Positions 23,850 through 40,807 of a stretch of DNA of 63,348 nt are shown piece by piece (within the stretch, counting starts at the first letter, position 1; the number at the start of each line of letters is the position of its first letter). The stretch covers positions 1 through 63,348 of IMG/VR virus record IMGVR_UViG_3300042905_000928; one strand, written 5' to 3'. Made by a program: the position numbers and the translations under genes. Below the pieces are notes generated by a model. The model was not told the DNA's origin. It made no database searches and worked only from the letters and a program-made list of their open reading frames with translations. This DNA comes from a virus. Its lineage: Duplodnaviria; Caudoviricetes.

Positions 23850-24200
23850 CTAGTTTATTTGCAGAATGATTATTGTGCAAGCACCACCAGGAATTATTTC
23901 CTGCCGAATTATGTGTAACTCATCTATCTGGTTATCGTTCTCGTAGCAGCCCGCATGCTCGCAGGCATCTAATAAACTCTTTAAAACGTTGTCTACGTCC
24001 CTTTTACGCCTGTCGGGAGGGAAGAGTGCTATGTGGACCGCTAAACGGCCTTCTAGGGCCTGTATTCCAGCCTCATTGACCGCATCCATCACTCTAGCCC
24101 TGAACTCTTTACCCTTCTTGCCAATGAACCTATGGTTGCCTGACTGTCCCCAGTAGTGGTTAACACTAGGTGGGTAGGGTAGTTGGAGTTGAATGTGCAT
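23850..24200 (-). CDS. rusA: RusA Holliday junction resolvase
   Basis: LPYPPSVNHYW, PPDRRKRDVDNVLKSLLD, NDNQID motifs. Confidence 0.9.
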   Translation of the reverse strand: MHIQLQLPYPPSVNHYWGQSGNHRFIGKKGKEFRARVMDAVNEAGIQALEGRLAVHIALFPPDRRKRDVDNVLKSLLDACEHAGCYENDNQIDELHIIRQEIIPGGACTIIILQIN

Positions 24201-24261
24201 GCCGTACTGTAACATCTTTACTGTATAAATACAACAGTTGCAATAAAATGAGGACAACCTA

Positions 24262-24296: not shown

Positions 24297-24321
24297 TCAA
24301 CTGCTAGGAAAGGAAAATCAA
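24297..24321 (+). promoter_or_regulatory. conserved leader motif copy 1 (TCAACTGCTAG-GAAAGGAAAATCA)
   Basis: Immediately after the -10 box, covers the RBS; recurs at 30956 (+), 39775 (-), 40797 (-). Confidence 0.7.
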
Positions 24322-25221
24322 GTGAAACTAACCAATAAGTATGGTATCCCACAGACGTTTATGAATGTCTTGGAGCGCCCTACATACAGTAAAGGTAAGG
24401 CTAATATCTCAGCGACTCAGCTGTTGAATAGCCCAAAGATCGTTGCTTTGACCAAGAAGTTTGATGAGGAACTGGAACAGGACGTGGCTGACATGATTTG
24501 GTCACTGTTTGGTTCAGCGATGCACAACATTCTTGAACATGGCAAAGATGGTAATCATGTGGTGGAACAGCGTGTCCACGTAGAGCATGACGGTTGGCAC
24601 ATCTCAGGCGCTGTTGACCTACAGATTGTGAATCCTGATGGAACGATTGATATTCGTGACTACAAGACCACATCTGCATGGGCAATGATGAACGAGAAGA
24701 TTGAGTGGGAACATCAACTCAACATCTACGCATGGCTTATTCAGCGTGCAAAGAAGCAAACTGTTAGTTCTGTGGGTATTGTTGGCTTAATCCGTGATTG
24801 GAATCGCCGTGAAGCGGCTACGAAAGAGGGCTATCCAGAAGCTCCAGTCAAAGAAATCCCAATCAAACTGTGGACGTTTGAAGAGCAAGAACAGTTTATC
24901 TCTAAAAGGGTGGCATTGCATAGTGCTTGTGAGTTCGCCATGGAAACAGAGGGCGACTTACCTGACTGCACCCCAACAGAGATGTGGGAAAAGCCAACGG
25001 TTTGGGCTTTGAAGAAAGAAGGAAACATCAAGGCTAAGGCTTTGTATGAGACTGAGGCACTTGCAGAGGAAGCTTTAAAAATTGCCTCTGAGAAAGATCC
25101 CAAGTCTAAGTTCTATGTAGAAGTAAGACCAGGAGAGCGTACTCGCTGTGCGAGCTTCTGTTCTGTTGCCCAATACTGCCAACAGTATCGGGACTATTTA
25201 AATCTTAAGGAGGAAGAATGA
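24322..25221 (+). CDS. PD-(D/E)xK Cas4-like exonuclease
   Basis: ISAT, GSAMH, SGAVDL...DYKT, QLNIY, C-terminal C..FC.V...C; GTG start after AAGGAAAA. Confidence 0.8.
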   Translation: MKLTNKYGIPQTFMNVLERPTYSKGKANISATQLLNSPKIVALTKKFDEELEQDVADMIWSLFGSAMHNILEHGKDGNHVVEQRVHVEHDGWHISGAVDLQIVNPDGTIDIRDYKTTSAWAMMNEKIEWEHQLNIYAWLIQRAKKQTVSSVGIVGLIRDWNRREAATKEGYPEAPVKEIPIKLWTFEEQEQFISKRVALHSACEFAMETEGDLPDCTPTEMWEKPTVWALKKEGNIKAKALYETEALAEEALKIASEKDPKSKFYVEVRPGERTRCASFCSVAQYCQQYRDYLNLKEEE

Positions 25222-25379
25222 AAACTAGACAAGAAATGATTTATGACTTCATGGTCTCTCTGGCTGCAAATGCAGAGTTTTATAAGCAATGGCATGAAGA
25301 CTCAGATGATGATGGGTATGGCAATAATGCTTATGCATTTGCTCAAGAACTTGCAGATGAATATTTAAGGAGCTTATGA
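25218..25379 (+). CDS. hypothetical protein (53 aa)
   Basis: AGGAGG RBS, overlapping start/stop on both sides. Confidence 0.6.
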   Translation: MKTRQEMIYDFMVSLAANAEFYKQWHEDSDDDGYGNNAYAFAQELADEYLRSL

Positions 25380-26104
25380 TGAGTGTATATAAAAAACTAC
25401 AGGATGCACGTATTCAGTTACAGAATACAAAGCTTTCTAAATCAGGGAAGAACAAGTTTGCTGGGTATGAATACTTTGAATTGGGTGACTTCTTGCCAGC
25501 TATTCAGACTATCTGCCAAAAGGTAGGCTTGTGCGGTGTCGTGTCATTCAATACTGACATGGCTTATTTAACCATCTATGACACAGACGGTGGTGACTTT
25601 GCTACATTCACATCCCCTATGTCATCAGCTGCCCTTAAGGGTTGCCATGATGTGCAGAACCTAGGTGCGGTTCAAACCTACCTACGCCGTTATTTATGGA
25701 CTAATGCTTTTGAGATTGTTGAGCATGATGCTTTAGATGCGACCACAGGTAATCAACCAGTAGCAAAGGTAGAGCCTAAGCCAGTAGTTAAAACTGTTAA
25801 CGGATACCCTGTTGATGAGAACTTAAAAATAATCGGACCTAAGCCTATCACTGGCGAGAAGGGTCAGTTCCAAATCGTAGCACCAGGAAAGCCCCAAGCA
25901 GAAGAGGCTATTGCAGGATGGTTGGCTAACATTAAAGATACCGCCAAGGTTCTATTAATGACTGCTTCAACCGAAGAGGATGTCATGCACATCTTTAAGA
26001 AGAACAAGGTGTTGTTTGACACCGTAAAAGCAACCGATGCCGTTTTCTTTAAGGAAATAATGGCGTTATTCACAGAAGCAAAAAACCAACTAGCGAAGGA
26101 GTAA
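25376..26104 (+). CDS. ERF-family ssDNA annealing protein
   Basis: KSGKNKFAGYEYFEL and QNLGAVQTYLRRY signature. Confidence 0.85.
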   Translation: MMSVYKKLQDARIQLQNTKLSKSGKNKFAGYEYFELGDFLPAIQTICQKVGLCGVVSFNTDMAYLTIYDTDGGDFATFTSPMSSAALKGCHDVQNLGAVQTYLRRYLWTNAFEIVEHDALDATTGNQPVAKVEPKPVVKTVNGYPVDENLKIIGPKPITGEKGQFQIVAPGKPQAEEAIAGWLANIKDTAKVLLMTASTEEDVMHIFKKNKVLFDTVKATDAVFFKEIMALFTEAKNQLAKE

Positions 26105-26107
26105 TAC

Positions 26108-26362
26108 ATGGCTTTTGAACAAAAACCAAATAGCGGTGCAATGTTTGTAAACGACCAAAAGAAGGCAGAGAACCACCCAGATTGGCGTGGCGATGTTTTC
26201 TTAGATAAGACATTCATCATTGAACAAATGGATAAATCCAAGGGTTCAATGGTCAAGATTGCTTTGTCAGCTTGGTCTAAACAGGCTAAGTCAGGCAAGG
26301 ACTACCTATCCATATCGGCATCAGAGCCATGGGTTAAAAAAGACGAAGACATTCCATACTAA
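26108..26362 (+). CDS. small ssDNA-binding-like protein
   Basis: HPDWRG...LSAW...GKDYLS and acidic tail DEDIPY. Confidence 0.6.
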   Translation: MAFEQKPNSGAMFVNDQKKAENHPDWRGDVFLDKTFIIEQMDKSKGSMVKIALSAWSKQAKSGKDYLSISASEPWVKKDEDIPY

Positions 26363-26371
26363 GGAGAAACC

Positions 26372-26827
26372 ATGAAACCATCCATTAAAAAAGCTATTTC
26401 AGTAGTCCGCAACACTTTGTTAGAAAACGGCAATCGCCCAACTCACAGCAACGATATTTGCACAAAGCATACAGATTTACCAAGAAGTGAGATTCACTAC
26501 GCATTGCGTGTCATGTGTGAAAAGAAGACTCTATCTCGTGTTAAACAAGGTACTTATGTGCTTACTTTTGCTGACAGACCATTTGATGAGTATGTGCTGA
26601 CTACCAAGAGACGAGCAAAAAAGCCACGCAAGGTTAATCCTGCAATACCTCTTGAGAAACAGTTACAGAAGTGGGATGCTGAAGAGAAAAAGACTGACTG
26701 GCAGGATCTATGTCAGAAGCTACAGAACGCATTGGCTAAAGCTTATGTGGACTGTGACCTGCTAGAAGCCACAGTTGCCGAGCAGAAAGTGGTCATTCGT
26801 TACTTAGAAAACCGTACTGTTCTATGA
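26372..26827 (+). CDS. winged-helix-like hypothetical protein
   Basis: AAGGAG RBS; wHTH-like N-half ending GTY, coiled-coil C-terminus. Confidence 0.5.
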   Translation: MKPSIKKAISVVRNTLLENGNRPTHSNDICTKHTDLPRSEIHYALRVMCEKKTLSRVKQGTYVLTFADRPFDEYVLTTKRRAKKPRKVNPAIPLEKQLQKWDAEEKKTDWQDLCQKLQNALAKAYVDCDLLEATVAEQKVVIRYLENRTVL

Positions 26828-27243
26828 ACAAGGTAAGTTTTGAGGGCGTCAAGGTTGCTATCAAGCAAGATAAGACTGGCTATGTGCTAACGCTTTCTAT
26901 CCACCCTGATGATATTCCTGAGATGCTTCTCAGGGATTTCGTTGGGGCGCGGTATGGCGTGGCCATGATTAGGATTGACGGCAACGAGCAACCGATGAAC
27001 CGAGAAGCTGAGTTTGAAGGTGATAAGCTGGTCCGCATAGCTGGCATGTTCAGCAAGGATGTGGAGTTCTGGAAGTATCTGTATGAGGATTCACAGATAT
27101 TTGAAGAGAACGAAAAGGAAGCCACAGAGTGGTTAAGAACTTACCTGTGTATTCAATCCCGTGCCGAGCTTAAAACCAATGCTCAAGCACAGCAACTTAT
27201 GAAAAAACTAGTTAAGGAATTTAACGAATGGAAAAGAAACTAG
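26824..27243 (+). CDS. hypothetical protein
   Basis: Coupled ORF; GYVLTLSIHPDD and SRAELK motifs. Confidence 0.6.
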   Translation: MNKVSFEGVKVAIKQDKTGYVLTLSIHPDDIPEMLLRDFVGARYGVAMIRIDGNEQPMNREAEFEGDKLVRIAGMFSKDVEFWKYLYEDSQIFEENEKEATEWLRTYLCIQSRAELKTNAQAQQLMKKLVKEFNEWKRN

Positions 27244-27506
27244 TACCGTACTCTGTGTATCTACCAATAGAACATGTTGAGAAGATCAAAAAGTTAGCTA
27301 AGAATCGTAAAGCTTCTGAGCTAATCCGTGATTCAATTATCAACATGTTAGAACATAAAGACATGTTCAAAAGTGGGTACAACAAGGGTATTAAAGATGC
27401 AGCCAAAGTAATCTATGACTGTAAAGAAGCACAAATGATTGCCATCCAGAAGCGTGATTTGGGTGACATTTTGTCTGAACAGATTCAATCATTGGAGCTT
27501 AAATGA
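27228..27506 (+). CDS. ribbon-helix-helix-like hypothetical protein
   Basis: YSVYLP...KASELIRDSI pattern. Confidence 0.5.
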   Translation: MEKKLVPYSVYLPIEHVEKIKKLAKNRKASELIRDSIINMLEHKDMFKSGYNKGIKDAAKVIYDCKEAQMIAIQKRDLGDILSEQIQSLELK

Positions 27507-27724
27507 ATGAAGACCCAACAAGAGATATAGCAATTGAGGTATTTCAGGTGCTGGCTACCAAGGCTGACATGGATACTGCTGTGATTTTGTCTGCTGTGAG
27601 TATTGTCCTGGCTACGATTGCGGTTGAAGCTGGGATGGAAGAGGAAAAGGCAGTTTACGCTTTCCGTAAATCCTATAGCAATGCACAGAGAAGACTGAAG
27701 CGATTGATGAAAGAGGTGCATTGA
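27503..27724 (+). CDS. hypothetical protein
   Basis: GGAG RBS, coupled ORF. Confidence 0.6.
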   Translation: MNEDPTRDIAIEVFQVLATKADMDTAVILSAVSIVLATIAVEAGMEEEKAVYAFRKSYSNAQRRLKRLMKEVH

Positions 27725-27924
27725 TGAATGATGATGACTTGAGAGACTGTTTTGCAATGTTTGCTGTTGCAGGAATGATGGCTCGTGGTGACATCCCACA
27801 CAAGGATATTGCTTACAGGGCTTATAACCTAGCAGATCTTGCCTTAAAAGCTCGTGTCCAGAAAGAAACAGATGAGTCAGCTGGCCTACCAGCGATTAAA
27901 CGGAGAGTTAAAAAGGGTGAATGA
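27721..27924 (+). CDS. small phage protein, LRD.FA..AY..AD..L.AR family
   Basis: Recurrent phage motif. Confidence 0.6.
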   Translation: MMNDDDLRDCFAMFAVAGMMARGDIPHKDIAYRAYNLADLALKARVQKETDESAGLPAIKRRVKKGE

Positions 27925-28066
27925 TCAAAACAAGTGGTGTACGTCATGCCGAATGATGAAGAACCCCATGGGTGGCGAGTGGATTGTTGCTAACAAGGGG
28001 CTTGTTAAACGATGGTCTTGTGCTTCTTGCCTTCAAAGAGCCAAGGAAAGAAAGGGAAAACAATAA
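27917..28066 (+). CDS. small Zn-ribbon protein
   Basis: CxxC...CxxC; GTG start inferred. Confidence 0.5.
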   Translation: MNDQNKWCTSCRMMKNPMGGEWIVANKGLVKRWSCASCLQRAKERKGKQ

Positions 28067-28257
28067 TGGATACAGATATTAAAAATGACAAGGCTTGGAT
28101 TGCTAAGTTAAGAAACTTTTTAATTGTGCTAATGGTTGGATTTTCCATCGGCAGCATAGTGACTAACGCTACATTTACCTACCAATTGCAACAAGACTGC
28201 GACACTATGAAACAGTTCCGTGTTGGTAAGTTAGCCTATACCTGCATAGTCAAATGA
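28066..28257 (+). CDS. small membrane protein
   Basis: One TM helix; coupled ORF. Confidence 0.55.
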   Translation: MDTDIKNDKAWIAKLRNFLIVLMVGFSIGSIVTNATFTYQLQQDCDTMKQFRVGKLAYTCIVK

Positions 28258-28330
28258 GCTGGGCCATATTAATCTGCCTCATCGTGATCGTGTATCGCCT
28301 TGAGTGCATCTTGAAGGAGCTGAGAAAGAA

Positions 28331-28594
28331 ATGAAAAATGAACCAGTAGCTTGGGCTGTATGGGAGGGAAGACCACATGATTTATTTTTTACAAAAGAAG
28401 AAGCAGATGAACTGTGCCGTCTAAAAGGTGGTGATGCTAAATCTATTCCACTCTACACCGCACCAAGAGAATTAAGTGATGAGGAAATAGTAAATTTGTA
28501 TGAATCATTGGAATACAAAAATGCTACAAGTAATGAGAAATATGATGCTATTCAGTTTGCTAGAGCAATACTAAAGAAAGCGAGTGAGAAATGA
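28331..28594 (+). CDS. hypothetical protein (EPVAW...PLY...LSDEEI type)
   Basis: Recurrent accessory phage motif; AAGGAG upstream. Confidence 0.6.
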   Translation: MKNEPVAWAVWEGRPHDLFFTKEEADELCRLKGGDAKSIPLYTAPRELSDEEIVNLYESLEYKNATSNEKYDAIQFARAILKKASEK

Positions 28595-28818
28595 GAGAAG
28601 ACTTTGAAGAGTGGGCGAAAGGTAAAATTTCTTTAGCCAACTATGACGGTGAATACGCCAATCTTGAGTCTCAGATAGCTTGGCAAGCATGGCAACGTTC
28701 GTGGAACATTGCAATCCGTGCGCAAAGACAAAGGGATGAGGCAGAGCTAAACGCCCTCAAGAACAAGATACTAATTGCTAAGGCCGCTTTAACGACTAAG
28801 GTTTTGGGTGCAAGATGA
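28591..28818 (+). CDS. hypothetical protein (FEEW...AWQAWQ type)
   Basis: Coupled ORF, recurrent phage motif. Confidence 0.55.
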   Translation: MREDFEEWAKGKISLANYDGEYANLESQIAWQAWQRSWNIAIRAQRQRDEAELNALKNKILIAKAALTTKVLGAR

Positions 28819-29474
28819 TTCCTAAAATCATTCACATCATCTGGATTGGCGATCAGTCCAAGAAGCCTACCCAGTGCATTGACACTTGGATTAAAAAGAA
28901 CCTTGACTACGAGGTAAGGGTTTGGGGTAACAATCAAGTCCAAAGTGTTAACTGGAAGAACTACCGCCAACTCCATGACATGCTGGCTAAGAAAGACTAC
29001 GCAGGGGCTAGTGACGTAATGCGTTATGAAATCCTCTACGAGCATGGTGGCATCTATGTAGATGCTGATACCTATTGCGTTAAGCCATTAGAAGATTGGT
29101 TGTTAAATTGTCAGGCGTTTGCCTCTTGGGAACAGGAGCTGGTGCGTAACAATCTGATAGCCAATACGGTGCTGGGCAGCGCTCCTGGGGCTGAAGCATT
29201 GAAATTATGTATAGAAGAAGTGGCTACCAAGGACTGCACAGAACAAAAACTGGCATGGATGATTACTGGTCCAATGCTTGTAACAGAGATATTTTTTAAG
29301 AAACAAGCCAATCTAACGGTGTATCCTTCTCATTTCTTTATGCCAGAACATCACTCTGGATACGAAAGTAAAGTTACAGGTCATCACTTTGCTCGGCATC
29401 TGTGGGGATCTGGCACAGGTTACGACAATATGGATGAAAGATTTAGAAATGACACCACAAAATCAACAACGTGA
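28815..29474 (+). CDS. glycosyltransferase, GT32/OCH1-like
   Basis: IPKIIHIIWIG, SDVMRYEILYEHGGIYVDAD. Confidence 0.88.
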   Translation: MIPKIIHIIWIGDQSKKPTQCIDTWIKKNLDYEVRVWGNNQVQSVNWKNYRQLHDMLAKKDYAGASDVMRYEILYEHGGIYVDADTYCVKPLEDWLLNCQAFASWEQELVRNNLIANTVLGSAPGAEALKLCIEEVATKDCTEQKLAWMITGPMLVTEIFFKKQANLTVYPSHFFMPEHHSGYESKVTGHHFARHLWGSGTGYDNMDERFRNDTTKSTT

Positions 29475-29488
29475 AGAAAGAGAGCAAA

Positions 29489-30262
29489 ATGAGCGAAAAC
29501 AACGAGAAACCAACGACTAAATCACCAACATTATTTGTAGCTACACCTATGTACGGTGGTATGTGCATTGGTAACTACGCCGCAGCTCTTATGCAGATGC
29601 CAATGATTGTAAGTAAAGCTGGTATTAAGATGTACTACACCTACATGATGAACGAGAGCCTGATTACCCGTGCCCGTAACAGTTTGGCTTATGATTTCTT
29701 GGCTTCAGATGCTACTCATTTGATGTTTATTGATGCTGACGTTGGGTTTCAACCTAATGACATCGTTGAGATGGTTAAGCGTGACGTGGATATTTGTTGT
29801 GGTTTGTACCCCAAGAAAGAAATTCATTGGCAACGAGTGGCTGATGCGGTAGGCAGAGGCGTGCCAGCTGACCAGTTAAAAGACCATACAGGTACATTCG
29901 TGGTGAACTTGGTTAAAGAAGAACGCCAAGAAGTAAAGATGAATGAATTATTAGAGATTCACAATGGTGGCACAGGCTTTATGTTGATCAAACGTGAAGT
30001 GTTTGAGGCTTTGGCTGATAAAGTGCCTGAATACAACAGTGATATGTATCTAGCCGTAGACACCGTAAGAACACCAAAAATTATTAAAGAATACTTTGCG
30101 ACCAGCATTGACCCTGAATCCAATAACCGCCTGCTATCTGAGGACTACCATTTCTGTAAGTTAGCGCGCAAGCATGGGTTCAAGGTGCATGCTGCGCCAT
30201 GGGTACAGTTATCTCACACTGGAACATACATCTTTAGCGGTGCTTTACAGCGTGTATCGTAA
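29489..30262 (+). CDS. GT-A-fold glycosyltransferase-like protein
   Basis: VATPMY, SLITRARN, LMFIDAD, GTGFMLIKREVF, LSEDYHFC. Confidence 0.75.
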   Translation: MSENNEKPTTKSPTLFVATPMYGGMCIGNYAAALMQMPMIVSKAGIKMYYTYMMNESLITRARNSLAYDFLASDATHLMFIDADVGFQPNDIVEMVKRDVDICCGLYPKKEIHWQRVADAVGRGVPADQLKDHTGTFVVNLVKEERQEVKMNELLEIHNGGTGFMLIKREVFEALADKVPEYNSDMYLAVDTVRTPKIIKEYFATSIDPESNNRLLSEDYHFCKLARKHGFKVHAAPWVQLSHTGTYIFSGALQRVS

Positions 30263-30539
30263 TAAGAAGCTATTGGAGGCTCTGCGTGAGTCTCCATGCC
30301 AACATTGTGGAAAACAAGATGGAACAATTGTTGCAGCGCACAGTAACCAGCTTAGAGATGGCAAAGGCCGTAGCATCAAGGCACATGACTACAGGACGGC
30401 AGCTCTATGCTACTGGTGTCACATGGAACTGGATCAGGGCAAAGACCTATCGAAAGCTGACAGGGAAGAGCTATGGGAAAACGCCCATCGTAAGACGGTA
30501 GGCTGGCTTTTTGAATCAGAAAAACTTACAATTAAATAA
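30252..30539 (+). CDS. HNH-like Zn-binding nuclease (DUF1364/DUF968-like)
   Basis: PCQHCG...AAH...ALCYWCH. Confidence 0.7.
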   Translation: MYRNKKLLEALRESPCQHCGKQDGTIVAAHSNQLRDGKGRSIKAHDYRTAALCYWCHMELDQGKDLSKADREELWENAHRKTVGWLFESEKLTIK

Positions 30540-30607
30540 AGCGAAAGCCAGCTTTACAAGCGAGACAAGGATTGCCCTTAAAGTGAGTTTGGCTGGCGAG
30601 TAGCTTT
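30538..30607 (+). ncRNA. structured hairpin with loop-E/sarcin-ricin internal loop
   Basis: AAAGC-GAAA-GCCAGCT ... GGCTGGC-GAGTA-GCTTT. Confidence 0.45.
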
Positions 30608-30627
30608 TTGCAAAAAAAATCGGCATT

Positions 30628-30643
30628 AAGTAAATATTTACTT
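30628..30643. promoter_or_regulatory. perfect 16-bp palindrome, candidate operator
   Basis: AAGTAAATATTTACTT, 15 bp upstream of the sRNA -35 box. Confidence 0.5.
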
Positions 30644-30658
30644 GACAAACACTATAGG

Positions 30659-30688
30659 TTGACAGGTGTTAAGAATTTCTGCTATATT
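30659..30688 (+). promoter_or_regulatory. sigma70 promoter of candidate sRNA
   Basis: TTGACA (30659-30664), 18 nt ending in extended TGc, TATATT (30683-30688). Confidence 0.75.
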
Positions 30689-30692
30689 TAGT

Positions 30693-30820
30693 GTATCAGT
30701 CCCCTTACTGATAGCCGTCAACCTGATTTTTCCGATTTAGCAGTTGGACTATCTTGACGGCAGCCCTCCAGGTGATCCCCTTCACCCTAAACCCCCAGCT
30801 AATCCCTGGGGGTTTTTCTT
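30693..30820 (+). ncRNA. candidate trans-acting antisense sRNA, four stem-loops
   Basis: Stems TATCAGT/ACTGATA, GCCGTCAA/TTGACGGC, GGTGA/TCACC and terminator AAACCCCCAG/CTGGGGGTTT; no ORF; loops complementary to phage leaders and RBSs. Confidence 0.75.
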
Positions 30821-30821
30821 T
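30789..30821 (+). terminator. intrinsic terminator of the sRNA
   Basis: 10-bp stem followed by U-rich tract. Confidence 0.8.
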
Positions 30822-30879
30822 GTGCCAATATGGTAAGAGCATGCCATGAATAATTTCCGTTAAAACGTACCTTTGTCAA

Positions 30880-30906
30880 TAACCTGAAATAGCTTATTTG
30901 AGGTTA
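30880..30906. promoter_or_regulatory. imperfect palindrome, candidate operator
   Basis: TAACCTGAAATA-GCT-TATTTGAGGTTA just upstream of the replication-operon -35. Confidence 0.45.
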
Positions 30907-30920
30907 CCTTTAAAAAGTTG

Positions 30921-30949
30921 TTGCAATTTATTTTTACTTCATTTAATCT
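30921..30949 (+). promoter_or_regulatory. sigma70 promoter of the replication operon
   Basis: TTGCAA, 17 nt, TAATCT; followed by GAGCCTCAACTGCTAG at the same spacing as the 24262 promoter. Confidence 0.7.
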
Positions 30950-30954
30950 AGAGC

Positions 30955-31356
30955 CTCAACTGCTAGAAGGAAAAATCAGGAACTGAAACAACTTCCTGAT
31001 GACAATTAGATTACCACCACGCCATTCATGGTGTGAGCTTGTGTCTCTTTGTCACTTTCTTTCTAGCATATGACGTACTCCACACGATAGCAAGAACCTA
31101 CATGGGTTGCGTGGAAGTAAACATAGGCTGATTTCATCACCCGATTTAGCCTCGTAGCCTTAAATGGGGACTACACAAGACGGAGAGCCAAGCGGTGAGA
31201 CCAACTCTCCATCGAATGAACATTAACTTAGGTAGGACTAGCAGTAACTGTGGAGTAGTGTATGGATTCGGAGAGTGTTATATGTGGGTCGGAGTGGTTA
31301 AGCACAACAGATGGTTGGCTTATCACCCTTGGGGGAACTATCAATTGGAGCAATGT
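30955..31356 (+). ncRNA. ~400-nt structured 5' leader / candidate RNA switch
   Basis: Helices 30961-30973/31056-31068, 30975-30982/30993-31000, 31076-31084/31249-31257, 31125-31131/31146-31152; alternative 30959-30966/31238-31245. Confidence 0.6.
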
Positions 31357-31656
31357 ATGAAAAACAAAGAACTTACAGACATAATCCTTGAAGCCATTAC
31401 GGAGCATGGATGTGTCACAACAACACAGATTGCAGACCTTCTCAAAGTTAATTCAGCCACCGCAGCAGGGCGGTTGACTTACCTTAGATCACAGGGTCGC
31501 ATTGTGGGCAAAAGAGCTAATTGGGCATTTAGATTGGAAGATCTAAAGGTCAAGCCCAAACAGCATATCGTTAATCAATCATTCACTGAACTATCAAATA
31601 TCTTTTACAACATAGTTCGCATGGGAGCTACAAATGAAAAAAATCAACATTCTTAA
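31357..31656 (+). CDS. winged-helix DNA-binding protein
   Basis: GGAG RBS; TTTQIADLLKVNSATAAGRLTYLRSQGRI HTH. Confidence 0.65.
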   Translation: MKNKELTDIILEAITEHGCVTTTQIADLLKVNSATAAGRLTYLRSQGRIVGKRANWAFRLEDLKVKPKQHIVNQSFTELSNIFYNIVRMGATNEKNQHS

Positions 31657-32479
31657 TATCCGCATTGATGGTGGCACACAGCCACGTCAAGAAATTGACT
31701 ACGATGTAGTGAAAGACTACGCAGAACTCATGCGTGATGGCGTGACATTTCCACCAGTCACCGTTTACTTTGATGGCGCAGAGTATTGGCTTGCAGACGG
31801 TTTCCACCGCTACCATGCCACTAAATCCAACGCTACAGCCACCATTGAAGCAGAAGTAATCACTGGTTCAATAGATGATGCTGAAGAGTATTCATTCACA
31901 GCCAACGGGGGTCGTGGTAACGATCTTACGAGAGAAGACAAGAAAGCCATCATCAGAAGAATGTTCCTGAAGAAAGAACGTTACGGAGACTGGTCACAGG
32001 AACGTATTGCCAAGCATGTCCATGTGTCACCCATGTTCGTCAGCCGAGTCAAGGCAGCCATGGAAATCAAAGATGAGCCAAAGGTCAAGAAGTTCATCAA
32101 AGATGGCGTAGAGAAAGAGATGAATGTCTCCAATATTGGTAAAAAAGCCAAGAATCAACCTACTAAACCTACTAAACCTGAAGTAGAACCGTATGACGAA
32201 AGCGAAGACAAAATCCGTGAGCTATCTGAGGTCATCACCCAGTTAGACGAGGAAGTAACGCTTCTGAAGGACAAGATAGCCATTGGTCAATGGGATGCCT
32301 CAGAAATTGAGAAGATTGACGTGGAAGAAACCCTTGTGGACTTGCGTGAACGAATCAGACTACTGGAAATTGACAACAAAGCATTGCGTGAGAGCAGAGA
32401 TATGTTCCAAAACCGTAACGCAGAGCTGATGAAAACAGTCACTTATTTACAAAGAAAGCTTAAAAAGGAAACAGCATGA
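31634..32479 (+). CDS. ParB/Srx N-terminal domain protein with HTH and coiled coil
   Basis: TQPR...FPPV...LADGFHRY; SQERIAKHVHVS HTH. Confidence 0.8.
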   Translation: MKKINILNIRIDGGTQPRQEIDYDVVKDYAELMRDGVTFPPVTVYFDGAEYWLADGFHRYHATKSNATATIEAEVITGSIDDAEEYSFTANGGRGNDLTREDKKAIIRRMFLKKERYGDWSQERIAKHVHVSPMFVSRVKAAMEIKDEPKVKKFIKDGVEKEMNVSNIGKKAKNQPTKPTKPEVEPYDESEDKIRELSEVITQLDEEVTLLKDKIAIGQWDASEIEKIDVEETLVDLRERIRLLEIDNKALRESRDMFQNRNAELMKTVTYLQRKLKKETA

Positions 32480-35733: not shown

Positions 35734-35881
35734 TTTCTTCCCCTTCCATTTCATCTAAGTAGCACTGTCTTGCTTCTTTATGGAAAGTAACAATAATGTT
35801 ACCTTTACGATCCCATGAAATTACCCAGTCAGCATGACCAAATACCTCTTCGCAATACTCGTCTAGTAAATCGCTATTCAT
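35720..35881 (-). CDS. hypothetical acidic protein (53 aa)
   Basis: Fills gap with overlapping start/stop. Confidence 0.5.
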   Translation of the reverse strand: MNSDLLDEYCEEVFGHADWVISWDRKGNIIVTFHKEARQCYLDEMEGEENDNN

Positions 35882-36168
35882 TCTGAAGCCCATCCAAAAA
35901 ATAAATACTCATCATCTTTAATATGGATGCAACCCGCATCCCCCCATTTGTCATCCACCCTTGAGTCGCAGTCATCAATCAGTTGTTCGGCATACACAAA
36001 GGCATCCAGTCCTTCAGCCAATGGAATGACCACAAAAGAGTTCTTCTCAGCGATAGTCCCAGTGTAGCCACCATGCCCATGCTGATACCTAGCTTCGTAA
36101 ACTAAACTATCAAAGGCTTTCTTGGCAGTCGAACCCAGTCCCACAGTCATAAACACTACTGCTCCCAT
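35878..36168 (-). CDS. hypothetical protein (GHGGYTGTIAEK family)
   Basis: GAGGAG RBS; DKWGDAGCI and FFGWAS motifs. Confidence 0.65.
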   Translation of the reverse strand: MGAVVFMTVGLGSTAKKAFDSLVYEARYQHGHGGYTGTIAEKNSFVVIPLAEGLDAFVYAEQLIDDCDSRVDDKWGDAGCIHIKDDEYLFFGWASE

Positions 36169-36713
36169 TATTCGCACTCCTCATCTGATTCATATTGCAT
36201 AGATATATCCATCTGATCATCAATGTATCTAGGTATGTTCTCTTGCACCCACGCTGAAGTGCATTGCTCAATGTCGTAATACTCTTCTTCGCCATCTATC
36301 CATGCACCACAGAAAGCCATGCCTGATTCGTAGTAATAACCCTTCACTTTGAAGCCAAGGTCAGCCAATACCGCATATGCTTGAGTTGGTGGACTCCAAG
36401 CAGAATCAAAGTAAACAAACATATCTTTCTCGCCACCTTGTGCATGATTATCTCTAGCAGAATCGTAGCCAATGTCCCATTTAGTCCCCCAGTTCTGCAC
36501 TCGCCAGTCCCACCAAGCAGTTTCAGGATCTACTGGATTCTCATTACCCCTAATATGCGGAAAAGTAGGCTTCACTTCCACAGTTTTGTAATCAGGCTCA
36601 GGCACAAGAGTCCCCAAGAATTTGCCTGATTCCCAAGCATCCTTGGCTTTCTTAATCATTTCAGGATCATCATGAGTTAAATACAAGTTGTTATCGCACC
36701 AGTTAGGCATCAT
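36168..36713 (-). CDS. DUF1281/YubB ferredoxin-like domain protein
   Basis: MPNWCDN, WWDWRVQNWGTKWD, FDSAWSPP, YYESGMAFCG. Confidence 0.75.
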   Translation of the reverse strand: MMPNWCDNNLYLTHDDPEMIKKAKDAWESGKFLGTLVPEPDYKTVEVKPTFPHIRGNENPVDPETAWWDWRVQNWGTKWDIGYDSARDNHAQGGEKDMFVYFDSAWSPPTQAYAVLADLGFKVKGYYYESGMAFCGAWIDGEEEYYDIEQCTSAWVQENIPRYIDDQMDISMQYESDEECE

Positions 36714-36859
36714 TCATTCTCCTTAAGTTTATAAATATTAAATACAGATACATCTTGAAAACGCACACAATCATTGAGATACTGGATTAGTGCATCAACC
36801 GCTTCTTCTTCATTCTCCACTTCCAATTCATCTTTAAAAGTAATTTCAAACTTCGGCAT
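36710..36859 (-). CDS. small acidic protein
   Basis: MPKFEITF...EVENEEEA. Confidence 0.55.
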   Translation of the reverse strand: MPKFEITFKDELEVENEEEAVDALIQYLNDCVRFQDVSVFNIYKLKENE

Positions 36860-37043
36860 CTTGATCCACCTTTGCGTATGTTCCAGTAATGTTAGATTCA
36901 AATAGATATAAGTCATCTGCATGAATTCCTTCAAAATGTCTTGTTTCTGCAATATGATGTGCTTCCTCACTATCTTTGGCTTCCATCTCATATGTGTAAA
37001 CCCATTGCTGAGTTTCATGTATTTCAACAGTGAAATTAGGCAT
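36846..37043 (-). CDS. small acidic protein, same paralogue family
   Basis: MPNFTVEIHE...MEAKDSEEAHHIA. Confidence 0.6.
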   Translation of the reverse strand: MPNFTVEIHETQQWVYTYEMEAKDSEEAHHIAETRHFEGIHADDLYLFESNITGTYAKVDQDAEV

Positions 37044-37326
37044 TTTCATTCTCCATAAACTCCAAAACATCAGTCCTAAAGGTATCCAGTGGATAATCCT
37101 CATTGATGATGTCAGTCAATAGATCAAGAAAATCATCTGTAGACATATTGTCGCTACCCAACCAACCTTCAACCATGGTTTTGCTTATGAGTTTCTTCCC
37201 AGTTGCCAAGTAGTAATCTGCTTCCTCTTCAGTTGCAAAGGTATGCAGTATTTCATCCCCATTGACATTGCTATGCCATATGTCCCATTGATCTTCACTT
37301 CTTTGTGATTTATATGTTGTTGCCAT
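37036..37326 (-). CDS. hypothetical acidic protein
   Basis: GAGGAG RBS. Confidence 0.6.
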   Translation of the reverse strand: MATTYKSQRSEDQWDIWHSNVNGDEILHTFATEEEADYYLATGKKLISKTMVEGWLGSDNMSTDDFLDLLTDIINEDYPLDTFRTDVLEFMENENA

Positions 37327-37328
37327 GA

Positions 37329-37496
37329 TTACTCCTCAAATTCGTTAATGTCGTAGAACACTATTCCCCAGTGTTCACCTTTTTCTATTAAATCGGACTG
37401 TTCCATTTCCCTAGCAATTTCTTCTGCTTGTTCAATCGAGTCAGCATCAATCAATACTCTTGTTTCAGTTGAAAAACTGGCAGTAAAACTAGGCAT
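37329..37496 (-). CDS. small acidic protein, same paralogue family
   Basis: MPSF...IDADSIEQAEEIA. Confidence 0.6.
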   Translation of the reverse strand: MPSFTASFSTETRVLIDADSIEQAEEIAREMEQSDLIEKGEHWGIVFYDINEFEE

Positions 37497-37653
37497 TTTC
37501 ATTCTCCTCAATTTGTTTAATTTTCTCTTCTGTTTCTGCTCTTGTAGGGAACATTAGGTAATCTCCAACCTCATCTATGTATTCATCAGCACCATTTGAG
37601 TCCAAGATAATCCAATAGTCCGCTACTATTTCTACTGCTTTCCATTTAGGCAT
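37489..37653 (-). CDS. hypothetical acidic protein
   Basis: AAGGGGA RBS at 37659-37665. Confidence 0.6.
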   Translation of the reverse strand: MPKWKAVEIVADYWIILDSNGADEYIDEVGDYLMFPTRAETEEKIKQIEENENA

Positions 37654-37876
37654 CTTCATCCCCTTCAATATCAACAATCACAAAGCCATCATCTAGGATC
37701 AAACCTACTTCCAACGGCTCTCCATCCATGTAGAAGAAAATGTTTCTATCTTCGTCATCTTCCACTTCATCCCAAGAATCCAATGCAATATCCACCCAAG
37801 TAAAATCCACCTTACTGGCATTTATATAGTCAGGCATATAAAACCCTCGGCAGTGTTTAGTATTGTATTTATTCAT
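37646..37876 (-). CDS. hypothetical acidic protein
   Basis: AAGGGG RBS at 37883-37888. Confidence 0.6.
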   Translation of the reverse strand: MNKYNTKHCRGFYMPDYINASKVDFTWVDIALDSWDEVEDDEDRNIFFYMDGEPLEVGLILDDGFVIVDIEGDEDA

Positions 37877-37886
37877 GTCATACCCC

Positions 37887-38189
37887 TTATTCAAAGTCTT
37901 TACCAACAAACACATTATTTTTACGGAGCAAGGCAATCGCATGGTCGTTTAATGACATTACTCCATCATATTCAACCAGTGTGCGACTGCCCACCTTGTC
38001 AAACTCAAACCAAAGCCCAATGCTTTCAAACAAGTCAGCACTGGGTATATCCCATTCAATAAACCCAGTGTTGTCCTTGCGGAAGTAAAGCTCCAGTGTT
38101 GACTCATGCTCACCTAAGTCCCTAGCACCCCAAGAACCCTCAAGGAATAGCTCAGATTTGACAGTCATAGAATCAATGAGTTCAGCCAT
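37887..38189 (-). CDS. hypothetical protein
   Basis: IGLWF...LVEYDGV motif; tightly packed operon. Confidence 0.6.
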   Translation of the reverse strand: MAELIDSMTVKSELFLEGSWGARDLGEHESTLELYFRKDNTGFIEWDIPSADLFESIGLWFEFDKVGSRTLVEYDGVMSLNDHAIALLRKNNVFVGKDFE

Positions 38190-38191
38190 AA

Positions 38192-38527
38192 TCAATACTC
38201 AGAAGTAAGCATCAATACATTGTCAGTCAGGAAGAATTCATACTCCCCTTCAGGGCAGTCAGTGAAGTCAATATGCTTTGTTTTGATCACATTGCAATCG
38301 CCATCTTCCACAGTGATTGTGGCTTTACCATCAGCCACCACCATCTTGATTGACAGGAAGTAGTCAACCTCTTGCAGTTCAAAGAATTCAGTCGCAACAA
38401 TATCCAAAAACCAGTAGGCACTGGCTTCACGACAGAAGTATTCCACCCCATCCGTATGCACCAGTTTTGGCACAAACATATTGGATTTATAGTATTGCTC
38501 AGTCCCAGTAAATTGATTCAATTCCAT
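38192..38527 (-). CDS. DUF6876-like protein
   Basis: LNQFTGTEQYY, TDGV, AYWFLD, IDFTDCP, LMLTSEY; AAGGGGA RBS. Confidence 0.7.
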   Translation of the reverse strand: MELNQFTGTEQYYKSNMFVPKLVHTDGVEYFCREASAYWFLDIVATEFFELQEVDYFLSIKMVVADGKATITVEDGDCNVIKTKHIDFTDCPEGEYEFFLTDNVLMLTSEY

Positions 38528-38528
38528 G

Positions 38529-38738
38529 TTATTCCCCTTGCATAAGTTCGTTATAAAAAGACCATGTAGAGCTAATACAGTCCCCACAGGCATTAAACAC
38601 ATCTACCACTACTCCATCATCATCCATCTTGATATTGATATAACCACCCGCCTTACCATCCTTATCTACCATGATGGCAAGAGAGTCGTTATCCAATTCA
38701 GCGACAGATAAGTCAAACCCCTTAATATTCGTTTTCAT
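38529..38738 (-). CDS. hypothetical protein
   Basis: GAGGT RBS; DDGVVVDVF. Confidence 0.6.
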   Translation of the reverse strand: MKTNIKGFDLSVAELDNDSLAIMVDKDGKAGGYINIKMDDDGVVVDVFNACGDCISSTWSFYNELMQGE

Positions 38739-38740
38739 AA

Positions 38741-39010
38741 TTACCTCAACACTGGCAAAACAGATTTCTCAGGATGCGAAGTAAACAACGCACCACCATC
38801 ATTGCCTTCATCATCCATGGATGCGAACAACCAAATACCAGTTTCCAACATGAAAGCAACAGGTCTTGAAGTCCAGTCCATGTCCTCTGCTTCTCTATGG
38901 CTTACATAGCGAACCCTAGTTATCTTCTTGCCAAGCAATATGCTACTGGCTTCAGAAGTCCAGTAATCCTCAATCTCCAATTCATTCATCTTTGATAGTT
39001 CAGCAGTCAT
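38741..39010 (-). CDS. hypothetical protein (DDEGNDGGAL family)
   Basis: AAGGGGA RBS at 39016-39022. Confidence 0.65.
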   Translation of the reverse strand: MTAELSKMNELEIEDYWTSEASSILLGKKITRVRYVSHREAEDMDWTSRPVAFMLETGIWLFASMDDEGNDGGALFTSHPEKSVLPVLR

Positions 39011-39566
39011 TTGTTTCCCCTTTTGTAACAGTAAATTCTCTTTCTTTCCATTTAGTGATGCGACATAGCACGCCATTGGTGGCTCTGAAAGCATCCCTAC
39101 CCAAGTAGGACTCATAAGTAAAAGTATCCTCTGAGAAGCTCCCAAAGCTCATTGCGGTGGCAAACTTGACCACATCCCCCATGATCAGTTTTGCCGATTT
39201 CTTCTTCTCTGATTTCTTGCGACAGGCTTCTCTCCAGACCCTTGCATGGTTATTAAATGGTGGAAAGAGAGCATCCAGTTTATCTAGCAGTTTCTTAGGT
39301 GCATCATAGTAATAAGGATGAGCAGTTTCACCCATCTCTTTGTAGTAAAGCCAATCATCCTCTTTGCGAGTCAGGATAATCATGGCTTCTGCTAAGATAA
39401 TCCCAGTTGTCTTATCTTGCACCTTGTGGATGCCATACGCAGTAGTCCCACGCATTGATACATCCGTTAATTCCCACTTGTGAGTATCAGACTCACTTGT
39501 GAATTCACGCACCAACCAGTCTTTAGTCGGCAGTGAGTCAAACTTTTGCGAACCAGTCCATCCCAT
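39000..39566 (-). CDS. DUF6927-like protein
   Basis: MGWT, YKEMGETAHPYYYDAP, WREAC; AAGGGGA RBS. Confidence 0.7.
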   Translation of the reverse strand: MGWTGSQKFDSLPTKDWLVREFTSESDTHKWELTDVSMRGTTAYGIHKVQDKTTGIILAEAMIILTRKEDDWLYYKEMGETAHPYYYDAPKKLLDKLDALFPPFNNHARVWREACRKKSEKKKSAKLIMGDVVKFATAMSFGSFSEDTFTYESYLGRDAFRATNGVLCRITKWKEREFTVTKGETNDC

Positions 39567-39576
39567 GTTATTCCCC

Positions 39577-39765
39577 TTAATGAGTTAAGTTAGCGTAATG
39601 CACGCCATGTTCAGCACATACCTTGACGAAGAAATCATCCTTCTTCAACGCACCAGTCATAGCGGATGCAATCTCTCTTGCAGTCCGATAAGGCATGGCG
39701 TTTTCTAAATGCACCCTAGCGATTGCTTTAGGCACAGGCTTTGAATTGATATACCACTGAATCAT
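39577..39765 (-). CDS. hypothetical protein
   Basis: AGGAG RBS preceded by the leader motif. Confidence 0.6.
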   Translation of the reverse strand: MIQWYINSKPVPKAIARVHLENAMPYRTAREIASAMTGALKKDDFFVKVCAEHGVHYANLTH

Positions 39766-39774
39766 TTGTATCTC

Positions 39775-39785
39775 CTAGCAGTTGA
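39775..39785 (-). promoter_or_regulatory. conserved leader motif copy 3 (TCAACTGCTAG)
   Basis: Starts 5 nt 3' of the hammerhead cut site and overlaps the RBS. Confidence 0.7.
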
Positions 39786-39877
39786 CTAAGACTGGATGCA
39801 ATTTGCGGACTCATGCCAACAGGCAATTTGCGGACTCATGCACCCAGTTTCGGGGATTCACCCCTCATCAGTTAGTC
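39784..39877 (-). ncRNA. type I hammerhead ribozyme
   Basis: GACUAA-CUGAUGA-GGGG/CCCC-GAAA-CUGGGUGCA/UGCAUCCAG-UC-UUAGUC; GUC cut after 39790. Confidence 0.9.
39798..39841. repeat. 19-bp direct repeat, two copies
   Basis: GCAATTTGCGGACTCATGC at 39798-39816 and 39823-39841. Confidence 0.95.
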
Positions 39878-40039: not shown

Positions 40040-40049
40040 CATCATCCCC

Positions 40050-40325: not shown

Positions 40326-40327
40326 GA

Positions 40328-40519: not shown

Positions 40520-40536
40520 AAGTTTCCCCTTTATTT

Positions 40537-40788: not shown

Positions 40789-40807
40789 TTTTTCCCCTAA
40801 CAGTTGA
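40789..40807 (-). promoter_or_regulatory. conserved leader motif copy 4 (TCAACTGTTAG-GGGAAAAA)
   Basis: One C>T change relative to the other copies; covers the RBS. Confidence 0.6.

What the first reader, a model, noticed from the sequence alone, without database searches (positions are those of the whole stretch)
30659..30821. Stand-alone multi-loop sRNA that appears to be a master antisense regulator of the phage's early genes
Seen: a strong sigma70 promoter, ~125 nt with no ORF folding into four consecutive hairpins, and an intrinsic terminator. The large loop of hairpin 2 (30722-30746, CCUGAUUUUUCC-GAUU-UAGCAGUUG) is the reverse complement of the replication-operon leader (30957-30980, CAACUGCUA-GAA-GGAAAAAUCAGG) as 9-bp plus 12-bp perfect blocks. 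Hairpins 1 and 3 both present UCCCCUU. Known: P1/P7 C4, P4 CI and N15 CA RNAs are phage immunity RNAs with bipartite loop-target pairing; I do not recognise this sequence as any of them. Inference: one RNA silences the recombination, replication and host-takeover units, acting as an RNA-based immunity or early-to-late switch in a phage with no visible CI-type repressor or integrase in this window.
Basis: partly seen in the sequence, partly recalled or inferred. Interest (0 to 1): 0.92.

Follow-up and report, generated by a model that had tools for sequence, protein, structure and literature searches.

The report
Phage antisense RNA against its own leaders
An uncultured lake-water phage and its relatives carry a small non-coding RNA gene whose exposed stretch mirrors the first bases of the neighbouring replication transcript and changes in step with it, so it is very probably a real RNA regulator of the phage's own early genes, although nobody has yet seen it expressed.

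Summary
At 30659-30824 (+) there is a near-consensus extended -10 promoter, a ~125-nt ORF-poor stretch that folds into four hairpins (z -6.3) and an intrinsic terminator. The hairpin-2 loop is the exact mirror (9 + 12 bases) of 30957-30980.

The unit is conserved upstream of the same gene in 26 of 80 related IMG/VR loci. Stems covary. In 20 distinct homologues the variable part of the seed and the first bases of the next transcript change together (cognate -29.9 vs non-cognate -19.8 kcal/mol; 0 of 10000 permutations). The invariant seed core also matches a leader motif at the start of the recombination operon and two leftward sites.

It matches no Rfam family and none of five GenBank relatives. 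It is not a c4/CI member: it has its own promoter and terminator.

In 16 of 21 relatives the targeted transcript carries the orphan Rfam motif RF02932. The window carries a different structured RNA there.

No integrase, resolvase or HTH_3 repressor was found, so prophage immunity is unsupported. Early-gene damping, or replication control with lineage-specific specificity, fits better. No expression data exist.

This scan found the same family before on another genome (e1-5981511).

The parts
30659..30688 (+). sRNA promoter: -35 TTGACA, 18-nt spacer with TG extension, -10 TATATT
   Evidence: 11 of 12. The same architecture is present in 20 of 20 distinct homologues, with the TG extension in 18 of 20.
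30695..30712 (+). Hairpin 1: 6-bp stem with a C-rich loop containing UCCCCUU
   Evidence: Fold. The stem covaries: 4 of 5 modelled pairs show changes on both sides. Loop sequence varies among relatives: CCCC-type, CCUCC-type or CCCACAC.
30714..30761 (+). Hairpin 2: 8-bp closing stem around a 32-nt loop that holds the seed
   Evidence: In most relatives the seed instead lies unpaired, 5' of a small hairpin.
30722..30746 (+). Seed: variable specificity block 30722-30733, spacer, and conserved core UAGCAGUUG at 30738-30746
   Evidence: TAGCAG is invariant in 18 of 18 aligned homologues. Mean pairwise identity is 0.94 for the core and 0.37 for the variable block.
30771..30786 (+). Hairpin 3: 5-bp stem GGUGA/UCACC with loop UCCCCU
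   Evidence: Relatives have GGAUC/GAUCC instead, so 3 of 5 pairs are changed on both sides (read from the folds).
30789..30824 (+). Intrinsic terminator: 10-bp stem plus U-tract
   Evidence: Of 8 modelled pairs, 4 show changes on both sides.
30921..30949 (+). Promoter of the target transcript: TTGCAA, 17 nt, TAATCT
   Evidence: Read. TTGCAN-16/17-TAAYCT-like promoter is present in 20 of 20 homologues, with the target core 6 or 12 nt after the -10.
30957..30980 (+). Primary target: the first bases of the replication-module transcript (9 + 12 nt mirror of the seed)
   Evidence: Covaries with the seed.
31056..31068 (+). Cis partner of the target, closing a 5' rod-like stem. The sRNA must compete with it.
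   Evidence: Folds. The cis helix covaries: cognate -20.1 vs non-cognate -15.6 kcal/mol, 0 of 10000 permutations.
31060..31290 (+). Body of the targeted transcript: a structured non-coding stretch before the first gene (ATG 31283)
   Evidence: z -3.6 for 30950-31200. Shared with L005, L028 and weakly L016. Relatives carry RF02932 at this position.
24297..24324 (+). Secondary target: leader of the recombination operon. The motif TCAACTGCTAG follows TTGACA-17-TAATAT and runs into the ribosome site and the GTG at 24322.
   Evidence: -30.0 kcal/mol, second-best trans site. The same motif at the same place in 4 related genomes.
39775..39785 (-). Copy of the leader motif just before AGGAG and an ATG inside the leftward cluster, directly after a hammerhead-like element
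40797..40807 (-). Variant copy of the leader motif (C to T, which still allows a G-U pair) before the first leftward gene
   Evidence: read by eye. It is not among the top sites of the scan.

Best explanation
This is a trans-acting antisense small RNA of about 125-130 nt, made from its own strong host-type promoter and ended by its own terminator.

Its exposed seed has two parts. A conserved core (CCUAGCAG-like; UUUAGCAGUUG in the window) mirrors a motif that opens several early transcripts and runs into their ribosome-binding sites. A fast-changing extension mirrors the next 10-20 bases of one particular transcript: the one that starts at the promoter immediately downstream and leads into the replication module (wHTH, ParB-like, helicase, primase).

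Shown: the gene's anatomy, its conservation, stem covariation, seed-target covariation, and competition for the same 5' strand with a covarying cis helix.

Inferred: at short leaders (the recombination operon here, the ParB-like gene in relatives) the duplex covers the ribosome site and blocks translation. At the long structured transcript, pairing to the extreme 5' end opens the 5' rod and changes the fate of that RNA through refolding, cleavage or decay. The net effect would be damping of early and replication functions as the RNA accumulates, with a specificity that differs between phage lineages.
For: Anatomy.

Conservation: the covariance model hits 26 of 80 loci fetched through the neighbouring ParB-like gene. 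All hits are on the gene's strand and upstream of it, and there is one copy in the window.

Structure: 96.2% of cells are paired, 8 of 13 pairs change on both sides, and the covariation score is 0.418 against 0.183 shuffled (0 of 500). Slid controls give 0.013-0.119.

Seed-target covariation:
- In 17 distinct pairs, cognate duplexes average -29.9 and non-cognate -19.8 kcal/mol. The cognate is best in its row for 11 of 17 and best in its column for 14 of 17; 0 of 10000 permutations reach the observed mean.
- Homologues found later (L097, L100, L182; L152 by eye) show the same lineage-specific matching.
- All 20 pairs scored give 14-29 bp.
- G-U pairs number 30 of 431 bp, against 7 A-C mismatches. 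This fits RNA pairing of + strand transcripts (biased, because the algorithm counts G-U as a pair).

Genome-wide, the adjacent leader is the best trans partner in the window, in G002 and in G004.

Both promoters are conserved in 20 of 20 homologues, and the target begins at the predicted transcription start.

The core motif occurs at the start of the recombination operon in the window and 4 relatives, and before the ParB-like gene behind its own promoter in many relatives.

Specificity blocks are hypervariable (identity 0.37/0.38) while the promoter (0.65), core (0.94) and terminator (0.64) are kept. Between the window and L003 the promoter is 46 of 46 identical but the variable seed only 15%.
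Against: No transcript has been observed.

The host is unknown, so promoter use and any chaperone are assumed.

The sRNA and its targets all have host-type promoters, so it is unclear how the early genes escape repression at the start.

At the long leader the target lies about 300 nt before the first gene. In a folding test, blocking the target did not lower the predicted accessibility of that gene's ribosome site (0.45 free, 0.52 blocked). So repression there is not shown, and activation is possible.

At the recombination leader only the conserved core covaries, not the variable block.

A coding-region site scores almost as well as the recombination leader (-29.8 vs -30.0).

54 of 80 related loci gave no model hit. 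Some lack the upstream flank and others carry different RNA units.

Relatedness of the sequences inflates shuffle and permutation tests.
Confidence: 0.72

Rival explanations
1. This is a functional sub-reading of the best explanation rather than a contradiction of it. The RNA is a copy-number or incompatibility determinant. The structured transcript it targets (RF02932 in most relatives, another RNA in the window) is needed for replication. The constitutively made antisense RNA reports genome copy number, as plasmid countertranscripts do. The rapid co-diversification of seed and target keeps co-infecting relatives from cross-regulating.
For: The target is the transcript at the head of the replication module. 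Pairing is to its extreme 5' end and competes with a cis fold. The specificity blocks are hypervariable between otherwise near-identical flanks. In several relatives the targeted RNA is followed by a separate promoter for the next gene, so it need not be just an mRNA leader.
Against: No origin, primer site or RNase H logic has been shown. The function of RF02932 is unknown: the main text of PMC5737381 does not mention the motif, and the supplements are closed. The antisense RNA is trans-encoded, not a countertranscript. Compensatory drift alone could produce the covariation.
Confidence: 0.3
2. The RNA is an activator. By pairing with the 5' strand it opens the rod-like stem and thereby stabilises the downstream RNA or exposes it.
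For: The target is sequestered in cis by a covarying helix. The folding test shows slightly higher, not lower, accessibility of the first ribosome site when the target is blocked.
Against: At the recombination leader, and at the ParB-like leaders of relatives, the duplex covers the ribosome site itself. That normally represses.
Confidence: 0.15
3. The element acts in cis. Read-through of the terminator gives one long transcript in which the seed and its mirror pair intramolecularly, as in the P4 and P1 immunity leaders. There would then be no free small RNA.
For: Seed and target are on the same strand and 210 nt apart. The known phage systems process the regulator from the operon it controls (passages of PMC5320573).
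Against: The terminator is strong: 10 pairs plus a U-tract, with covarying pairs. A separate conserved promoter sits between the terminator and the target in 20 of 20 homologues.
Confidence: 0.08
4. The complementarity is a DNA-level inverted repeat: a protein operator pair or a recombination site, not an RNA-RNA interaction.
For: The motif sits at the promoter-proximal position of several early promoters, where operators also lie.
Against: No recombinase or HTH_3 protein was found. G-U pairs outnumber A-C mismatches 30 to 7. One motif copy follows a ribozyme-like element rather than a promoter. The surrounding hairpins, promoter and terminator are conserved as an RNA gene.
Confidence: 0.04

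Closest known systems
c4 antisense RNA of phages P1/P7 (Rfam C4), with the related CI RNA of P4 and CA RNA of N15 (the last two recalled, not read here)
   Same: It is a phage-encoded structured antisense RNA that acts on the phage's own transcripts. One constant pairing part overlaps a ribosome site, and one variable part sets specificity and differs between related phages. For c4 these are loops b' and a', as described in passages of PMC5320573.
   Different: c4 is cut by RNase P out of the leader of the operon it controls, is about 77 nt long, and belongs to a prophage immunity system (PMC5320573 passages). Here the RNA has its own promoter and terminator. It has no Rfam C4 match. The phage shows no integrase or repressor. 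The main target is the 5' end of a long structured RNA.
Plasmid countertranscript copy-control RNAs (ColE1 RNA I/RNA II, R1 CopA, pT181/pIP501 attenuation systems; recalled)
   Same: A small, constitutively made, multi-hairpin RNA pairs with the 5' part of a replication-module transcript and competes with that transcript's own folding. Specificity diverges quickly between relatives.
   Different: Those RNAs are read from the opposite strand of their target, so complementarity is automatic. Here the regulator is a separate gene on the same strand, and complementarity is kept by co-evolution. A role for the target in replication is not shown.
Multi-target Hfq-type sRNAs with an anti-ribosome-site seed (GcvB, RsaE-like C-rich loops; recalled)
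   Same: The gene stands alone with a terminator and U-tail. A conserved seed matches a motif shared by several leaders, and C-rich loops could match G-rich ribosome sites.
   Different: It is phage-encoded and aimed at the phage's own genes. It carries an extra lineage-specific extension of 10-20 nt for one target. No chaperone is known, and the host is unknown.
Rfam RF02932, Betaproteobacteria-1 RNA (orphan motif)
   Same: It lies on the targeted transcript, directly after the sRNA-bound 5' rod, in 16 of 21 related loci tested.
   Different: It is the target's body, not the sRNA. The window itself has no RF02932 match and instead carries another structured RNA, shared with L005 and L028.

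Membership tests
P1/P7 c4 antisense RNA (Rfam C4) | Sequence and structure match to the Rfam covariance model | tested here: not met
   No family reached its gathering score in the whole window. At E up to 10 in 30400-31700 there were 5 weak hits, none to C4.
P1/P7 c4 antisense RNA (Rfam C4) | Processed by RNase P from the leader of the operon it controls (PMC5320573 passages) | tested here: not met
   Own promoter in 20 of 20 homologues and own terminator. Processing itself cannot be tested with these tools.
P1/P7 c4 antisense RNA (Rfam C4) | Two pairing elements, one occluding a ribosome site and one giving specificity | tested here: met
   The conserved core overlaps ribosome sites of short leaders. 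The variable block covaries with the adjacent leader. This is a functional likeness, not homology.
P1/P7 c4 antisense RNA (Rfam C4) | Part of a prophage immunity system (repressor, antirepressor) | tested here: not met
   No PF00589, PF00239 or PF01381 in the 100%-complete genome, while the controls ring. No antirepressor was seen among the ORFs scanned. Not every small ORF was scanned.
Plasmid-type countertranscript copy-control RNA | Transcribed antisense to (overlapping) its target | tested here: not met
   Regulator and target are separate units on the same strand, 210 nt apart.
Plasmid-type countertranscript copy-control RNA | Target transcript is required for replication (primer or rep mRNA leader) | not testable with these tools
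   The target heads the wHTH/ParB-like/helicase/primase module. Its role is unknown.
Trans-acting base-pairing sRNA (generic) | Independent transcription unit, conserved structure, single-stranded or loop seed, conserved complementarity to targets | tested here: met
Trans-acting base-pairing sRNA (generic) | Discrete transcript detected | not testable with these tools
   See Tried and rejected.
Rfam RF02932 Betaproteobacteria-1 | Match to the model at or above 49.4 bits | tested here: not met
   Not met for the window. Met at 86-100 bits in 16 of 21 relatives' loci, downstream of the sRNA target.

The most novel reading that the evidence does not exclude
The small RNA and the structured transcript it binds form an RNA I/RNA II-like pair that controls phage DNA replication. 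The orphan Betaproteobacteria-1 RNA (or its counterpart in the window) would be a replication RNA. The trans-encoded antisense RNA would be its copy-number and incompatibility determinant, diversifying like an immunity specificity in phages that have no repressor or integrase.
Probability: 0.13. Interest if true: 0.85.

Novelty: new variant of a known kind. Interest (0 to 1): 0.66.

Why it matters
Antisense RNAs that govern a phage's own programme are known from a handful of temperate coliphages. There they are carved out of the operon they control.

Here a free-standing RNA gene with a two-part seed (a constant anti-leader core plus a fast-evolving specificity block) is conserved across a clade of uncultured lake phages. 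These phages show no lysogeny genes. The covariation is as clear as sequence alone can give.

The finding also gives the orphan Rfam motif RF02932 a regulatory partner and a genomic role to test.

Together with similar notes from this scan on unrelated phages, it suggests that 'anti-leader' RNAs may be a common way for phages to time or limit early gene expression.

Tried and rejected
Rfam: nothing at gathering score in the window and nothing relevant at E up to 10 around the locus. A weak Pseudomonadales-1 hit at 30507-30625 (17.4 bits against a threshold of 68) was dismissed.

blastn of 30500-31300 and of 31283-32479 against 50,697 phage records gave no match.

Model R1 was run against five GenBank relatives (MW202426, DSL-LC04, 023Pt_psg01, HTVC027P, Pag-Yong1). 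There was no credible hit; the best was 15.5 bits, E 0.2, in HTVC027P.

Of 238 loci fetched, nhmmer kept 7, all viral and 2 of them already known, and 0 of 120 genome loci. This says nothing about prophage copies.

RF02932 was sought in 151 genomes of one order and found in 1, with no R1 beside it. This gave no host lead.

Sequencing runs: no RNA holder listed. The DNA holders are lake-water metagenomes kept as contigs.

The first duplex test, with long sequences, was too noisy because of large interior loops. It was replaced by short windows.

MAFFT and RNAalifold did not align the middle of the RNA. Hairpin 3 was therefore read from single-sequence folds.

A folding test of whether sRNA binding hides the first ribosome site was inconclusive.

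I left this as a side note.

The loop/ribosome-site idea was tested only roughly. ORF calls there are mechanical, and the loci are related to one another.

The main text of PMC5737381 does not mention Betaproteobacteria-1. Its supplements, which may describe the motif's contexts, are closed.

Full report
WHAT IS THERE. The window is a complete (CheckV 100%), linear 63,348-bp virus record from IMG/VR.

Its gene map:
- A long + strand structural block runs 41087 to the end and continues from base 1 to 23790. It holds small and large terminase, portal, capsid-like proteins, tail fibres, ejection proteins and a 3934-aa multi-domain protein.
- A RusA-like gene lies on the minus strand at 23850-24257.
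- A rightward recombination and modification block runs 24322-30539 (exonuclease, Erf, glycosyltransferases, HNH).
- The candidate RNA follows.
- A rightward replication block comes next: wHTH protein (ATG 31283), ParB-like 31634, helicase 32640, primase 34112.
- A leftward block of small unknown genes spans 40800 down to 34908.

The large terminase is 53-57% identical to those of phage 023Pt_psg01, Pelagibacter phages HTVC027P and HTVC023P, and phage DSL-LC04. DNA holders of the locus are lake-water metagenomes.

THE OBSERVATION.
- an 11-of-12 promoter with a TG extension at 30659-30688, and the only terminator-like site of the region at 30789-30815;
- four hairpins in 30695-30824, with MFE -46.8 kcal/mol and z -6.27 against 200 shuffles;
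- a hairpin-2 loop whose bases 30722-30733 and 30738-30746 are the exact mirror of 30969-30980 and 30957-30965.

The + strand of the unit has no ATG, and the listed frames are 30-31 aa from TTG.

In a scan of all 25,322 windows of 45 nt on both strands, the loop's best trans partner is the replication leader (-35.5 kcal/mol; background -11.6 +/- 3.3). Second is the start of the recombination operon (-30.0). A coding site at 11831 scores -29.8 and is probably chance.

IS IT A GENE? I fetched 80 related loci through the neighbouring ParB-like protein (31-73% identity).
- nhmmer found the unit in 22 of them.
- A covariance model found it in 26 of 80. Twenty-two score 66 bits or more, three score 29 bits and one scores 20 bits. 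All are on the same strand, upstream of that gene, and the window holds a single copy.
- Five further homologues came from a pattern scan.

On 23 distinct sequences, hairpin 1 and the terminator are 96.2% paired. Eight of 13 pairs change on both sides, and the covariation score is 0.418 against 0.183 in shuffles (0 of 500). Slid controls give 0.013-0.119.

Hairpin 3 switches between GGUGA/UCACC and GGAUC/GAUCC, so three of its five pairs change on both sides.

The promoter (TTGACN, 18 nt, TAYATT) is present in 20 of 20 distinct homologues, with the TG extension in 18.

This is a conserved, structured, independently transcribed non-coding RNA gene.

IS THE PAIRING REAL? In every homologue the terminator is followed by a second promoter (TTGCAA, 17 nt, TAAYCT; 20 of 20). 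The mirror of the seed begins 6 or 12 nt after its -10, which is at the predicted first bases of that transcript.

The seed has two parts. The invariant core is TAGCAG, usually CCTAGCAG. The block 5' of it differs in almost every lineage, and the leader differs with it.

The quantitative tests agree:
- With 39-nt seeds and 42-nt leader windows of 17 distinct loci, cognate duplexes average -29.9 and non-cognate -19.8 kcal/mol.
- The cognate leader is the best of 17 for 11 sRNAs, and the cognate sRNA is the best of 17 for 14 leaders.
- None of 10,000 permutations reaches the observed mean.
- All 20 distinct pairs give 14-29 bp.
- The same genome-wide scan in two complete relatives again puts the adjacent leader first.
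- G-U pairs (30 of 431 bp) outnumber A-C mismatches (7). This is the asymmetry expected for RNA pairing of + strand transcripts rather than a DNA inverted repeat. The count is biased, because the algorithm treats G-U as a pair.

The specificity blocks are hypervariable (mean pairwise identity 0.37 for the seed, 0.38 for the target) between conserved flanks (promoter 0.65, core 0.94, terminator 0.64). Between the window and L003 the promoter is identical at 46 of 46 positions while the variable seed is 15% identical.

WHAT IS THE TARGET? The first ~25 nt of the transcript are also paired in cis with a strand 60-90 nt downstream, forming a rod-like 5' stem (window 30961-30973 with 31056-31068). 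This cis helix covaries too: -20.1 against -15.6 kcal/mol, 0 of 10,000 permutations. The sRNA and the cis strand therefore compete for the same 5' strand.

Behind the rod, 16 of 21 related loci tested carry the Rfam motif RF02932 (Betaproteobacteria-1 RNA, 86-100 bits). This is an orphan motif. Its source paper does not discuss it in the main text, and the supplements are closed.

The window, L005, L028, L006, L097 and L078 have no RF02932 match. The window instead has another structured stretch (31060-31290), shared with L005 and L028 and weakly with L016.

In several relatives the next gene has its own promoter, so the targeted RNA may be more than an mRNA leader.

OTHER TARGETS. The core's mirror, TCAACTGCTAG, occurs at three places in the window:
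- directly after the -10 of the recombination-operon promoter, running into the ribosome site and the GTG at 24322;
- at 39775-39785(-), before AGGAG and an ATG;
- as a C-to-T variant at 40797-40807(-), before the first leftward gene.

The 9-mer occurs 6 times against 0.86 expected (0 of 100 shuffles). One copy is the sRNA gene itself and two lie in structural genes.

Four related genomes have the motif at the same place in their recombination leaders. There only the core matches their sRNA, not the variable block. Many relatives also have the motif behind a separate promoter just before the ParB-like gene. At these short leaders the duplex would cover the ribosome site.

THE C-RICH LOOPS. Eight of the 9 AGGGGA sites that precede ORF starts lie in the leftward cluster, and they match the UCCCCUU loops.

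In G002 the hairpin-1 loop is of the CCUCC type, and 12 leftward genes use GGAGG sites. That is also the ordinary strong ribosome site, so the match proves little.

In G004 and many others the loops are CCCACAC/CAC, with no matching ribosome sites.

Across loci, GGGG-type sites are 22 of 135 where the loops carry CCCC and 11 of 179 where they do not. The ORF calls there are mechanical and the loci are related.

LIFESTYLE. Searches of the whole genome for tyrosine integrase, serine recombinase and HTH_3 found nothing, while the controls rang. The family scans of 40 ORFs showed no repressor or antirepressor. 'Immunity of a prophage' therefore has no support. The specificity pattern is nevertheless what immunity and incompatibility determinants look like.

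COMPARISON WITH KNOWN SYSTEMS. The closest in logic is c4 of P1/P7. It is a structured antisense RNA with one loop that occludes a ribosome site and one that sets specificity, and it differs by a few bases between heteroimmune phages (passages of PMC5320573). But c4 is cut by RNase P from the operon leader and belongs to a prophage immunity system. Neither holds here, and there is no Rfam match.

Plasmid countertranscripts share the replication context and the competition with target folding (recalled), but they are cis-encoded.

No GenBank phage tested carries the RNA.

From the search listings, the passages of PMC5320573 and the passages of PMC5737381, none describes this family. I read no other paper.

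This scan noted the same family earlier on another genome (e1-5981511), and analogous anti-leader RNAs in unrelated phages. I did not use those notes as evidence.

VERDICT. I class it as a new variant of a known kind, with interest 0.66.

Noticed in passing
window 39790-39876 (-) and about 40537-40590 (-); G002 near 22624 (-): Hammerhead-like elements: a CUGAUGA core, stem II, GAAAC, stem III and a GUC, with stem I closed by the flanks. The MFE of the first gives the three-way junction, and a copy in relative G002 has different, still paired, stems. Rfam reports nothing even at E up to 10. In the window, cleavage of the first would leave the sRNA-matching motif near a new 5' end.
   Followed up: partly
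L003, L007, L011-L015, L018, L022, L027, L029, L031, L032, L076, L100, L182 (e.g. L029:1486-1605): Rfam RF02932 (Betaproteobacteria-1 RNA, 86-100 bits) sits on the transcript targeted by the sRNA in 16 of 21 related loci. The motif therefore occurs in freshwater phage replication modules and has a conserved antisense partner.
   Followed up: partly
window 31060-31290 (+): A structured non-coding stretch replaces RF02932 in the window. It is shared with L005 (E 2.5e-57) and L028, and weakly with L016, and it holds a second CUAGCAGU copy at 31238-31245.
   Followed up: partly
window 30882-30904, with a minus-strand promoter-like site at 30879-30850: A near-palindrome (ACCTGAAAT..ATTTGAGGT) lies in a ~100-nt insert between the sRNA terminator and the next promoter. 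A similar insert occurs only in L005; in other relatives the gap is 4-11 nt. It could be an operator or an antisense promoter.
   Followed up: no
L016:3480-3690, L019, L020, L021 (upstream of the ParB-like gene): More distant relatives lack the R1 RNA. They carry a different promoter-to-terminator unit of about 150 nt that itself begins with the GCTAGG leader motif, followed by a structured RNA like the window's.
   Followed up: no
window 35744-40798 (-): The leftward small genes favour an AAGGGGA ribosome site: 8 of the 9 such sites in the genome that precede ORF starts.
   Followed up: partly
window 11986-23790 (+): A 3934-aa ORF combines DarB-like antirestriction, lysozyme-like and DNA methyltransferase matches. 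It is probably an ejected multi-enzyme virion protein.
   Followed up: no
window 30507-30625 (+): A hairpin-rich spacer lies between the HNH gene and the sRNA promoter. It has a weak, sub-threshold match to Rfam Pseudomonadales-1 (17.4 bits, threshold 68).
   Followed up: no
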